A stretch of 64,000 bases of DNA. It comes from Negaprion brevirostris. Its lineage: Eukaryota. The stretch spans positions 33,923,430 through 33,987,429 of the forward strand of contig JARDVH010000133.1 in the NCBI GenBank assembly GCA_030324005.1, in the 5' to 3' direction. Positions 39,001 to 42,000 of this stretch are shown here, piece after piece (within the stretch, counting starts at the first letter, position 1; each line of letters begins with the position of its first letter). Made by a program: the position numbers.

Positions 39001-42000
39001 AGAGGTTACAAATCTGTAACTATCAATCACTTCCTTCTCGAGACTTACGACATCACTAGTCAATTTTGTCTTATGACATCTATCAACTGGTCAACTTTGT
39101 CCTTTTGATTCTCTTTGTGCTATTATAATTTAGAACATAGAACATTACAGCGCAGAACAGGCCCTTCGGCCCACGATGTTGCGCCGACCAGTTTTTTAAA
39201 AAAAACACTCCCCAATTCTTCCACAACCTTCCTATAGTGAGGTGAACTGAACGGCAAACAGTATTCCAAATGTGGTCTCACCAAGGTCCTGTATAATTAC
39301 AGCATAACGCCACGGCTCTTAAACTCAAAATCCCCTGTTAATAAACGCTAACACACTATAAGCCTTCTTCACGGCTCTATCCAATTGATTGGCAACATTA
39401 AGAGATCTGTGGATATGAACTCCAAGGTCTTTCAGTTCCTCCACACTCCTCAGAACCCTACCTACATTTTGACCCCACATTTACTGCTTCAGTGTCTCAG
39501 CTCACCTGTTTCCTTGTGGATAGATGTTCTCAAAGGTGTCGGCAGATCCTGATGGCTCACCACACATTCAAACACAGCCGCACTCAGCCAGGCTTGTGTT
39601 GAGATGTTTAATTTGCTGATCACGCTGTCAGGATCCGCTCCGGGCTTTTCGGCAATCTCTGATTTTAAATACTTCTTGTCTCGGATCCAGGAAACGTTAA
39701 CTCCATAAGGAGCATGAGAAATGATGCAGGTTAAAGTCACGGTCGCCTCCAGTAAGACCTGTTCTATTGGTGGTGGCTGTATCTTCACTGTGGATTCATG
39801 GCATTGGAGAGGATCTGTGAATGAAAAATGAAAATCAACCCGAGTTCCCCTTCAGAAGCAGGGCAACAGTCTTCAGCCTGAAGGAGACGAAGTTGCCTTC
39901 GAGGTATCAATCTCCAACTATCACCTTTCAATTTCTATAGGCGATGGCAAACCAGCTTGTTCTATGAATTTATTCCTTTATTAAAGTATTGTAGCTCCTG
40001 TATCATTCTCATGAATCAGCATTACAGCTGATACCATCCTGATCTCAGGAACAAAGTATTGGCCATGGCTTTATAAGGTTGAGATACATTTTCCAATATT
40101 TTACCCCTGTGCTGTGACCTGTGAAACAGTCCGATACCGACTGTCTCTCCAAGTCTTACTGGCTGTCTCAAGAAAAAAGGTGACATCAAGGCCACCTCAT
40201 TCTTTTCAAAACAGAAAGGAATATTATTTCAAAAGGAGACAGTGGCATGGTGCATTGTCAGTGGAGTTGTAACCTAGGGCAAAGCTCTGGGGAAATAGAT
40301 TCGGATCTCACCACTGCAGATGGTGAAATGGGAATTTAATAAAAATCTGTGATTAAAAGTCAAATGATCATCAAGAAGCCATTGTTGTCAAAGCCCACCT
40401 GGTTCACGAATATTCTTTGGAAAAATAAACCTGCTGTCTTTATCTGGCCTGGCATGCATGTGACTCCAGATTCACAGCAACGTGGTTCACACTTAAGTGC
40501 CCTCAGGGATGGAATATAAATGCACATCTCAGGATAGAATAACAAAAATTGCTGTTGTGATGAAATTCTGAGTAGCGCTGTCTGAATGCAGCAAACTACA
40601 TGACAATAACTTAGATGCTTTGTACTAACTTTAATAGATCCCCAATTCAAATTAACATCAGAATTGTATATTTTATGCACGATTTGAGTCTCTTACCCCG
40701 AGATGCGCTGATGTTCTGACTCTGAGTGAATTCTTGATGAGTGACCTGGCAGGTATAGACCGCTTTGCTGAACCATTCCCCAGCGGAGACTGCCAGCCGG
40801 CTGCTGGCTGAGAAGTTCCCGTTCACTTGACAGGCGGGAGAGGTGACAATTCCTGAATCCACGGGTTCCCCATTCTTCAGCCACTTCACCGTCAGTGACT
40901 GTGGCTGGAAATCGATTATTGAACAGACGATGGTTGCAAATTTGCTGCTTGAGATTTCTTCACTCGAACTCACAGTGAGGATAACAGTTGGATGGAAAAC
41001 ATTAGGACCTTCAGAAAAAAAAACATATTCGTCATTTCCTGCAGAAGATGTGGGTCAATTAAACTTTTGTCTACATTAGCAACTCATTTGCAGTCAATAG
41101 ACACTAGCCTGAACAATCCAGGGGCCTAGATTATGCACATCTATTTAACTGAGTTATAACCAAGGCCCTACATGTGAACCACAGTGTTTCTGTTTTACAC
41201 AAGTTCCACAACACTTACATGGCATTTCAATGCTCTTGAGTGAGCTGCTGTGTTGAATCTCACAGTCAATTCTGGGACATTCTCCCGCTGAGTCGCTGAT
41301 GGTTAACTGGCTGCTCAGGGTGTAGGTGCCCTTCGTGTTTCGCACTGACGGGTACGTCTTAAACCCAGTGGTGAACGGCTGCCCATTTTTCTTCCATGTC
41401 ACTTTGGAGACATCTGGAGAGTAATCCATCGCCAAACAGCCGTAAGTGATGAAGCTGTCGGGGTTCTGTTGCTGACAGGAGGAGACCAGGCCGTAGAGAG
41501 AGGGCGGAGATGGTGTCACTGGGAAAGAATAGCCAATTGAACAAGTTAGACTCTTAATTGCATTTATTAAGTCATCAAACATATTGTTACAAATAGGTTT
41601 CTATATCAGATATAGCTTTTGGTGTTGAAGGGAAAAGGGAATATGGGTAATAGGTATGATCAGGATATTGATGAGCTCTGACCAAAGTGAATGGCGGAGT
41701 AGGCTCAATGGGCCGAATGGTCTACTCCAGCTTCCATTTTCTTTGTTCCTATCTCGAACAATGATTAAAAATATGGACTTTCCTAACACTTCCTGATAAA
41801 AACATACATCAACCTTTGAGATTATGTTACTTTTATCATTTGGGAATTGTCATCTCTGTAGAAGCTCATATACCTGTCTCCACTTCTATCAAATTAGGAA
41901 GGTAAAAAACATCCTGGTTTCCTCAAATTGCCATGTCATTCATTGGATTAACAGAGAAGAGCAAAGATTTTCTCCATTATTGATGAAACTACTTATTTCT

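What the first reader, a model, noticed from the sequence alone, without database searches (positions are those of the whole stretch)
39506..41518. Intact IgM constant exons (Cmu1-Cmu2-Cmu3) nested antisense inside a HECTD4 intron
Seen: three minus-strand exons of 300, 312 and 309 bp, each with canonical AG/GT, phase 1/1, an open frame and the Ig C1-set Cys-Trp-Cys core. They keep their introns, so this is not a processed retrocopy. They lie between HECTD4 exons 38493-38608 and 45212-45315, which still join in frame. Known: shark IgH genes are multiple V-D-D-J-C miniclusters, and HECTD4 is a single-copy housekeeping-type gene with no Ig link that I know of. Inference: if real, this is a recently moved IgH orphon. 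It would show how shark Ig clusters disperse and would place a V-less constant region inside a transcribed host gene. A chimeric assembly is at least as likely (see the CR1-bracket finding).
Basis: partly seen in the sequence, partly recalled or inferred. Interest (0 to 1): 0.85.

Follow-up and report, generated by a model that had tools for sequence, protein, structure and literature searches.

The report
Shark IgM exons inside HECTD4 intron
Three intact shark IgM constant-region exons do sit antisense in a HECTD4 intron of this draft assembly, but they most likely got there through an assembly error at a repeat rather than through a real gene movement.

Summary
Minus-strand exons 41518-41219, 41008-40697 and 39814-39506 (300/312/309 bp, AG/GT, phase 1) each encode an Ig C1-set domain. 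They are 81/79/85% identical to Cmu1/Cmu2/Cmu3 of Triakis scyllium IgM. They lie between two consecutive, in-frame HECTD4 exons on the plus strand.

No Cmu4, secretory tail, TM, V or J exon occurs anywhere in the 64 kb.

The Ig block has weak anchors on both sides. Upstream it ends in low-complexity repeats at a 100-N scaffold join. Downstream it meets a degenerate CR1 LINE fragment about 40 bp after Cmu3. The CR1 pieces on the two sides have the same orientation and family and are collinear (ORF2 aa ~244-268 and ~723-805 plus the 3' tail), as if one intronic CR1 had been split.

The same window shows a second CR1-bracketed contig and lacks one conserved HECTD4 exon, so the local assembly is demonstrably faulty. 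The exons show no relaxed constraint.

Best reading, at about 0.6: a chimeric assembly of an ordinary IgM cluster fragment. A real, recent V-less orphon (about 0.3) is not excluded. No reads or other shark assemblies were available. A G-rich 20-mer array upstream of Cmu1 is worth noting.

The parts
41219..41518 (-). Cmu1 exon (300 bp, phase 1/1)
   Evidence: C1-set 49.6 bits. 81% identity to Triakis IgM residues 136-233.
40697..41008 (-). Cmu2 exon (312 bp, phase 1/1)
   Evidence: C1-set 69.7 bits. 79% identity to Triakis IgM residues 239-336.
39506..39814 (-). Cmu3 exon (309 bp, phase 1/1)
   Evidence: C1-set 36.4 bits. 85% identity to Triakis IgM residues 338-439. The best solved-structure hits are Ig heavy constant mu chains (7qdo_B, E 1.5e-22).
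39131..39462 (-). Degenerate 5'-truncated CR1 LINE fragment, starting about 40 bp after the Cmu3 donor. ORF2 aa ~723-805 (39462-39213) carries one frameshift and one stop. After a T8A6 run (candidate seam, 39191-39212) it jumps to the last ~60 bp of the 3' UTR, with an (ATGTTCT)2 tail ending near 39131.
44806..44880 (-). CR1 ORF2 piece (aa ~244-268 of P0113, 72% identity) running into the N gap. It has the same strand and family as the 3' piece.
44706..44805 (.). 100-N scaffold join between the Ig-bearing contig (34006-44705) and the next HECTD4 contig
   Evidence: It was neither filled nor looked up.
42481..43235 (-). Tandem ~20-mer array, about 1 kb upstream of Cmu1 and G-rich on the Ig sense strand (consensus close to AGGGCAGAGAGCYGGGGGAA)
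   Evidence: G 44.6%, A 34%. GGG 93/kb against 9.7/kb in the window. It holds 3 of the window's 6 G4 motifs.
43236..44705 (-). Degenerate (CTCAC)n low-complexity array in which the contig ends
   Evidence: C 44.8% and G 4.9% on the Ig sense strand.
38493..38608 (+). HECTD4 exon upstream of the host intron
   Evidence: (P0027 aa 680-719, 97.5% identity).
45212..45315 (+). HECTD4 exon downstream of the host intron
   Evidence: (P0027 aa 719-753, 88.6% identity).

Best explanation
The three exons are an ordinary piece of a shark IgM heavy-chain minicluster: the distal J-Cmu intron with its repeat arrays, then Cmu1, Cmu2 and Cmu3. Their position inside the HECTD4 intron is most likely an assembly artefact.

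The true HECTD4 intron probably holds one 5'-truncated CR1 LINE, running from ORF2 aa ~244 to the 3' tail. The Ig cluster probably carries its own short CR1 fragment just 3' of Cmu3. During contig extension or gap closing, the HECTD4-side CR1 tail was joined to the Ig-side CR1 fragment. The candidate seam is the T8A6 run at 39191-39212, where about 0.4 kb of CR1 is skipped. The chimeric contig then ran through the Ig piece and stopped in low-complexity repeats. A later scaffolding step tied it by a fixed 100-N join to the next true HECTD4 contig, which starts inside the CR1 5' part.

Shown: the identities, the coordinates, the collinear CR1 halves, the gap, and other assembly faults in the window. 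Inferred: the misjoin itself and where it lies.
For: 1. No other part of an IgM gene is present. tblastn with 6 shark IgM proteins finds only these three exons, and everything else has E >= 0.74. No J-like WGxG or usable RSS lies in 41519-44705.

2. The Ig block is bounded by a 100-N run on one side and a repeat on the other. The contig ends in a (CTCAC)n array.

3. The CR1 pieces on both sides share strand and family and are collinear: P0113 aa 244-268 at 44880-44806, and P0111 aa 723-805 at 39462-39213, followed by the 3' tail. About 1.4 kb of ORF2 (aa 258-722) is missing exactly where the Ig block and the gap sit.

4. The 3' CR1 piece has an abrupt internal skip at a T8A6 run.

5. The assembly is faulty close by. 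There are 13 N runs in 64 kb, and 2 of the 13 gaps are directly abutted by this CR1 family. A second contig (57378-58990) sits between a CR1 ORF2 piece that runs into a gap (57033-57197) and a CR1 tail just after the next gap (59170-59188). A strongly conserved HECTD4 exon (P0027 aa ~1073-1097) is absent from the window at that place.

6. The exons look functional. They have 2, 1 and 1 unique departures at otherwise invariant columns, against 0-5, 0-3 and 0-4 for the 10, 10 and 7 comparison shark sequences.
Against: There is no N run between HECTD4 exon 38493-38608 and Cmu3, so one contig (34006-44705) physically links them in the assembly.

The only repeat on that path is a short (~330 bp), clearly decayed CR1 fragment. 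It has a stop and a frameshift, is 77-80% identical at the protein level to the best reference, and its tail is 87% identical to the other tail in the window. Old, diverged copies share few long exact words, which makes a repeat-driven misjoin less easy.

A real insertion into an intronic CR1 would also give collinear CR1 halves, if the missing 1.4 kb lies in the gap.

A 5.2-kb Ig block that assembled without any gap suggests a copy distinct from other clusters.

No reads, depth data or second assembly could be examined.
Confidence: 0.6

Rival explanations
1. The block is a real, recent DNA-level orphon. A fragment of an IgM minicluster (distal J-Cmu intron to just past Cmu3) was copied into the HECTD4 intron. 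This could have happened by ectopic recombination or repair between the CR1 copy behind Cmu3 and the intronic CR1, or by non-homologous insertion into that CR1. It has no V(D)J, Cmu4, tail or TM exons, so it cannot make an antibody chain. It would be a young, still undecayed relic carried antisense in a transcribed gene.
For: Contiguous assembled sequence runs from the HECTD4 exon to Cmu3 without an N. The intervening CR1 fragment is old and diverged. The Ig block assembled cleanly over 5.2 kb. The truncation after Cmu3 and the lack of V/J in the window fit a fragment. Collinear CR1 halves are also what an insertion into a CR1 would leave. A catshark gene model (P0011) that fuses V-Cmu1-Cmu2 to TCR-like V domains hints that partial IgM clusters exist at odd places in a better assembly; this is a lead only.
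Against: The 5' junction is unseen because it lies in the gap. The 1.4 kb of CR1 that must then lie upstream of the insert is also unseen. The exons show no relaxed constraint, so the event would have to be very recent. The same window has demonstrable CR1-associated assembly faults. Searches, and a term search in PMC12227049, found no paper reporting an Ig fragment in HECTD4.
Confidence: 0.3
2. The block is a real retro-mediated copy. An unspliced IgM pre-mRNA ending in the CR1 3' tail that lies behind Cmu3 was reverse-transcribed by the CR1 machinery and inserted into the HECTD4 intron (a 5'-transduction-like event). Alternatively, CR1 reverse transcriptase switched templates onto the Ig pre-mRNA.
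For: The Ig exons and the CR1 fragment have the same orientation. The block ends exactly at a CR1 3' tail with its microsatellite, which is the sequence such LINEs need for priming (established knowledge of CR1-type LINEs, recalled). This would explain the loss of Cmu4. A weak candidate target-site duplication (AAATTAAAA / AAATTATAA) sits next to the CR1 5' piece and after the tail.
Against: Both introns and more than 3 kb of J-C intron are retained, so a more than 5-kb unspliced germline transcript is required. The CR1 5' piece beyond the gap would have to be an unrelated coincidence, or the result of a double template switch. The candidate duplication is no better than shuffled controls: the best exact match of 7 was reached in 775 of 2000 shuffles, and the best 11-mer score of 9 in 1047 of 2000. 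The internal skip in the CR1 piece is unexplained.
Confidence: 0.05
3. The Ig exons are real and functionally used at this site, for example as a truncated Ig-like transcript or a regulator antisense to HECTD4.
For: The frames and splice sites are intact and the key residues are conserved.
Against: The window has no leader, V, start codon context, Cmu4, tail or TM exon. A phase-1 first exon cannot start a protein. No expression data were available.
Confidence: 0.02

Closest known systems
Elasmobranch IgM heavy-chain minicluster (V-D-D-J-Cmu1-4-TM), e.g. Triakis scyllium IgM heavy chain (P0004)
   Same: Domain-by-domain match to Cmu1, Cmu2 and Cmu3 at 81/79/85% identity. One domain per phase-1 exon. 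The cysteines, tryptophans and N-glycosylation motifs seen in the alignments are conserved.
   Different: Only 3 of the 4 C exons are present. The window has no secretory tail, TM exons, or V, D or J segments. It is placed antisense in an unrelated gene.
Ig orphons (Ig gene segments outside the main loci, IMGT usage; reviewed in PMC7555362, seen only in the search listing)
   Same: If real, this would be a non-functional Ig constant-region fragment away from an Ig locus.
   Different: Described orphons are mostly V or whole C genes in duplicated blocks (recalled, not checked). Here the location itself is unverified.
Repeat-mediated chimeric contigs and scaffolds in short-read draft assemblies
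   Same: The foreign block is bounded by an interspersed repeat on one side and a scaffold gap on the other. The flanking repeat halves are collinear. The multi-copy gene family is hard to assemble. There are other faults in the same window.
   Different: The repeat at the seam is short and diverged, and no read evidence could be examined.
Tetrapod class-switch (S) regions
   Same: The 755-bp tandem 20-mer array about 1 kb upstream of Cmu1 is G-rich on the non-template strand. It contains GAGCTGGGGG-type units and holds 3 of the window's 6 G4 motifs.
   Different: AGCT is only about 2-fold enriched (9.3 against 4.85 per kb) and WGCW is not enriched (19.9 against 23.5 per kb). The array is short. 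Its conservation in other clusters or species is unknown. Reviews state that sharks lack conventional switch regions (passages in PMC4279169, and PMC8201067).

Membership tests
Ig C1-set domain (Pfam PF07654) | Profile score above the curated gathering cut-off (21 bits) | tested here: met
   3 of 3 exons pass, with 49.6, 69.7 and 36.4 bits.
Ig C1-set domain (Pfam PF07654) | Intradomain Cys ... Trp ... Cys core | tested here: met
   The core is visible in each translation and aligns with the cysteines and Trp of 7-10 shark IgM sequences.
Shark IgM heavy-chain constant gene (Cmu) | Closest named relatives are IgM heavy chains, with the domains in the order Cmu1, Cmu2, Cmu3 | tested here: met
   The best relative is Triakis scyllium IgM heavy chain.
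Shark IgM heavy-chain constant gene (Cmu) | Complete constant region: Cmu4, secretory tail and TM exons downstream | tested here: not met
   tblastn with 6 IgM proteins, two of them with Cmu4 plus tail and one with a TM end, finds none in the 64 kb. Only weak paralogous matches back to the same three exons appear.
Shark IgM minicluster | V, D, D and J segments with RSS upstream of Cmu1 | tested here: not met
   There is no V or J hit in the window. No credible J or RSS lies in 41519-44705. The N gap at 44706-44805 limits the test.
Ig orphon | Truly located in the genome outside an Ig locus | not testable with these tools
   This needs reads or an independent assembly. No shark genome collection was available.
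Processed retrocopy | Intronless, with a poly-A tail | tested here: not met
   Introns of 210 and 882 bp are retained.
Assembly chimera | No reads or pairs span the junctions, and the mates of the foreign block map elsewhere | not testable with these tools
   Only circumstantial evidence is available: the gap, the repeat bracket, and other faults in the window.
CR1-clade LINE | ORF2 homologous to endonuclease plus RT proteins, and a 3' end with a short microsatellite | tested here: met
   Both pieces match 936-942-aa proteins that carry PF03372, PF14529 and PF00078. The tail motif and the (ATGTTCT)n repeat are shared with two other copies.
Tetrapod-type switch region | Tandem repeats upstream of the C exons, G-rich on the non-template strand | tested here: met
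Tetrapod-type switch region | Dense AGCT/WGCW hotspots, recombination breakpoints, and conservation across clusters | tested here: inconclusive
   AGCT is about 2-fold enriched and WGCW is not enriched. Breakpoints and conservation are not testable here.

The most novel reading that the evidence does not exclude
The block is really there. It would be a very young, V-less, Cmu4-less IgM cluster fragment carried antisense in an intron of the housekeeping gene HECTD4. Its 3' breakpoint lies at a CR1 copy. Its 5' breakpoint lies in or beyond the repeat arrays of the J-Cmu intron, including a G-rich, switch-region-like 20-mer array, which is the intron in which shark inter-cluster switching is reported to break (recalled from Zhu et al. 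2012, not readable here). That would be a caught-in-the-act example of how shark Ig miniclusters fragment and disperse through interspersed-repeat homology or switch-like breaks in the germ line.
Probability: 0.3. Interest if true: 0.55.

Novelty: not a real feature. Interest (0 to 1): 0.27.

Why it matters
If the nesting is an artefact, the main value is practical. This scaffold should not be used to claim Ig dispersal, and gene models of HECTD4 and of IgM from this assembly need care; one HECTD4 exon is also missing nearby.

If the nesting is real, it would document a fresh Ig constant-region orphon inside a transcribed housekeeping gene and point to CR1-mediated dispersal of shark Ig clusters. 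That would be of moderate interest to comparative immunologists.

Independently of where the piece belongs, the G-rich tandem array upstream of Cmu1 bears on the question of whether cartilaginous fish have switch-region-like sequences. It deserves a check in properly assembled clusters.

Tried and rejected
1. I looked for the rest of an IgM gene (V, J, Cmu4, tail, TM) with 6 shark IgM proteins and found none. A motif search for J (WGxG) and RSS heptamers in 41519-44705 gave only 3 WGxG hits, all inside the repeat-array reading frames, and one lone heptamer without a nonamer, seen on both strands.

2. Target-site duplication test for the two CR1 ends: the candidate is AAATTAAAA / AAATTATAA (8/9), but the generic match statistics are no better than shuffles. 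Inconclusive.

3. The first LINE reference search returned mostly fragments. The only long hit, P0082, turned out to be an unrelated TPR-type protein and was dropped.

The piece was mapped locally instead.

5. Self-comparison of the flanks found few copies in the window, so family age could only be judged roughly.

6. Zhu et al. 2012 on shark isotype switching is not held. What I say of it is recalled.

7. Literature searches for shark Ig orphons, genome-wide IgM cluster maps, J-C intron repeats and HECTD4 plus shark gave nothing on this arrangement, judged from listings and abstracts only.

8. Not done:
- No structure prediction, complex prediction, atlas or Rfam search was run, because none would bear on the open question.
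- The genome-contig collection (bacteria and archaea) was not used, as it is irrelevant to a shark.

Full report
**What is there**

Read on the minus strand, the region holds three exons:
- 41518-41219, 300 bp
- 41008-40697, 312 bp
- 39814-39506, 309 bp

Each has a polypyrimidine tract plus AG in front and GT behind, and each is phase 1 at both ends. The introns between them are 210 and 882 bp. The translations have 99, 103 and 102 residues with no stop.

Every exon was examined on its own.

All 3 of 3 exons pass the Pfam C1-set gathering score. A database search with the Cmu2 exon returned 11 proteins with E <= 0.001 among 246 candidates. The best was Triakis scyllium IgM heavy chain. The others were IgM or Ig-like models from Scyliorhinus torazame, S. 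canicula, Chiloscyllium punctatum and Ginglymostoma cirratum, plus one unnamed entry.

Pairwise, the exons match Triakis residues 136-233, 239-336 and 338-439 at 81%, 79% and 85% identity. That is Cmu1, Cmu2 and Cmu3 in order. The Cmu3 exon's best solved-structure relatives are Ig heavy constant mu chains.

**The host gene**

The window is not human. It is a cartilaginous-fish HECTD4 locus. The exon at 27587-27865 hits proteins named HECTD4 in several animals (48 proteins with E <= 0.001 among 495 candidates).

Named fragments from bullfrog (P0027) and Crotalus (P0023) give 23 and 30 tblastn segments, all on the + strand and in ascending order across the 64 kb. The exons flanking the Ig block, 38491-38610 and 45211-45315, match P0027 residues 680-719 and 719-753. 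They are consecutive exons, and the shared codon joins in frame.

Unnamed HECTD4-like hits could come from any vertebrate sample and were not fetched or used.

**What is missing**

tblastn with six shark IgM proteins finds only these three exons. There is no V, no J, no Cmu4, no secretory tail and no TM exon anywhere in the window. All other hits have E >= 0.74.

A motif scan of 41519-44705 finds no credible J or RSS. As it stands, the block cannot encode an antibody chain.

**The surroundings, on the Ig-sense strand**

Upstream of Cmu1 come, in order:
- About 960 bp of ordinary sequence with a SINE-like fragment.
- A 755-bp tandem array of a ~20-mer (43235-42481). It is 44.6% G and 34% A, has GGG at 93/kb against 9.7/kb for the window, and holds 3 of the window's 6 canonical G4 motifs.
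- 1.47 kb of degenerate (CTCAC)n (44705-43236), which runs into a 100-N run at 44706-44805.

All 5 of 5 tandem-repeat rows with score >= 100 in the whole window fall in 42490-44594.

Beyond the gap, 44880-44806 encodes a CR1 ORF2 stretch: P0113 aa 244-268 at 72% identity, and P0111 aa 238-257.

Downstream of Cmu3, about 40 bp after the donor, a CR1 fragment of the same family and strand begins:
- 39462-39213 matches P0111 aa 723-805 at 77-80% identity, with one frameshift and one stop.
- After a T8A6 run, the sequence jumps to the last ~60 bp of the CR1 3' UTR, with its (ATGTTCT)n tail ending near 39131.
- About 520 bp of unique intron then lead to the HECTD4 exon.

The CR1 references are 936-942-aa proteins with endonuclease and RT domains. 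The earlier long hit P0082 was spurious.

**Real or artefact?**

The window has 13 N runs, which is the mark of a short-read scaffold. No N lies between 34006 and 44705, so one contig links HECTD4 exons to the Ig block. That is the main point in favour of reality. It is reinforced by the CR1 fragment on the path being short and decayed, which makes an exact-repeat misjoin harder.

Several points argue the other way:
- The two CR1 pieces are collinear halves of one element type, with about 1.4 kb (aa 258-722) missing just where the Ig block and the gap lie.
- The 3' piece has an abrupt internal skip at a low-complexity run. This is a plausible seam, though that is my inference.
- The Ig-bearing contig ends in low-complexity DNA at a fixed-size 100-N join.
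- The same window shows the same pattern again. A CR1 ORF2 piece (57033-57197) runs into a gap, a 1.6-kb non-CR1 contig follows, then another gap, then a CR1 tail at 59170-59188.
- In that interval a highly conserved HECTD4 exon (P0027 aa ~1073-1097) is simply absent from the window.
- The Ig exons show no sign of relaxed constraint. They have 2, 1 and 1 unique departures at otherwise invariant columns, inside the ranges of 0-5, 0-3 and 0-4 for the 10, 10 and 7 comparison sequences (two of the comparison sequences are partial in the Cmu1 alignment). This fits exons from a working cluster, or else a very recent copy.
- A candidate target-site duplication around the two CR1 ends (8 of 9 bases) is not better than shuffled controls.

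**Verdict on mechanism**

I put about 0.6 on a chimeric assembly of an ordinary IgM cluster fragment into the HECTD4 intron through CR1 copies. I put about 0.3 on a genuine, young DNA-level orphon, about 0.05 on a CR1-mediated retro-copy of unspliced pre-mRNA, and about 0.02 on any local function.

No reads, depth data or other shark assemblies were accessible. The orthologous intron therefore stayed unchecked. The N runs were neither filled nor looked up.

**Comparison with what is known**

The block behaves like part of a standard elasmobranch IgM minicluster. It passes the domain and isotype tests but fails the tests for a complete C region and for V-D-D-J. It is not a processed retrocopy.

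Whether it is an orphon in the IMGT sense cannot be tested here. I found no paper on an Ig fragment in HECTD4 or on shark Ig orphons:
- Searches, judged from listings and abstracts only.
- PMC12227049, where I saw the abstract and a term search only. 'HECTD4', 'orphan' and 'pseudogene' each occur 0 times in its main text. Its supplements were not seen.

**Side observation**

The G-rich 20-mer array upstream of Cmu1 has two switch-region features: tandem repeats, and G-richness on the non-template strand with GAGCTGGGGG-like units. However, AGCT is only about 2-fold enriched and WGCW is not enriched.

Two reviews say sharks lack conventional switch regions (passages read in PMC4279169, and PMC8201067). 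The primary paper on shark switching, Zhu et al. 2012, is not held, so I cannot say whether such arrays were described there.

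Noticed in passing
window 42481-43235 (minus strand = Ig sense): A 755-bp tandem array of a ~20-mer lies about 1 kb upstream of Cmu1. It is 44.6% G and 79% purine on the sense strand, has GAGCTGGGGG-like units, and holds 3 of the window's 6 G4 motifs. It resembles a switch region in part, but AGCT is only about 2-fold enriched.
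   Followed up: partly
window 43236-44705: A 1.47-kb degenerate (CTCAC)n / (GTGAG)n low-complexity array has the opposite strand skew to the neighbouring 20-mer array. The contig ends in it.
   Followed up: partly
window 55703-62023: A strongly conserved HECTD4 exon (P0027 aa ~1073-1097) is absent from the window. Its expected place holds two N runs (57199-57377 and 58991-59096) and CR1 pieces. The assembly is incomplete there.
   Followed up: partly
window 57033-59215: There is a second CR1 bracket. An ORF2 piece (aa ~590-661, + strand) runs into a gap. A 1.6-kb non-CR1 contig (57378-58990) follows, then a gap, then a CR1 3' tail (59170-59188). This is the same pattern as around the Ig block.
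   Followed up: partly
protein P0011 (Scyliorhinus canicula gene model): The model fuses IgM V-Cmu1-Cmu2 to two TCR-like V domains. This suggests a partial IgM cluster next to TCR-type V segments, or a run-on gene model.
   Followed up: no
window 40235-40504 and 42050-42147: SINE-like interspersed repeats lie inside the Cmu2-Cmu3 intron and upstream of Cmu1. Diverged copies (66-89% identity) occur at 13066-13251, 18831-19116, 59245-59338, 11114-11170 and 13657-13701.
   Followed up: no
window 13925-15051: An older, more distant CR1-like RT copy on the + strand has two small N runs inside it (13978-13980 and 14924-14933).
   Followed up: no
one search hit list: Fish-type CR1 ORF2 proteins are filed under bacterial names (Carnobacterium maltaromaticum, Klebsiella pneumoniae) on 1.6-3 kb contigs. 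This is probably host or food DNA contamination of those assemblies.
   Followed up: no
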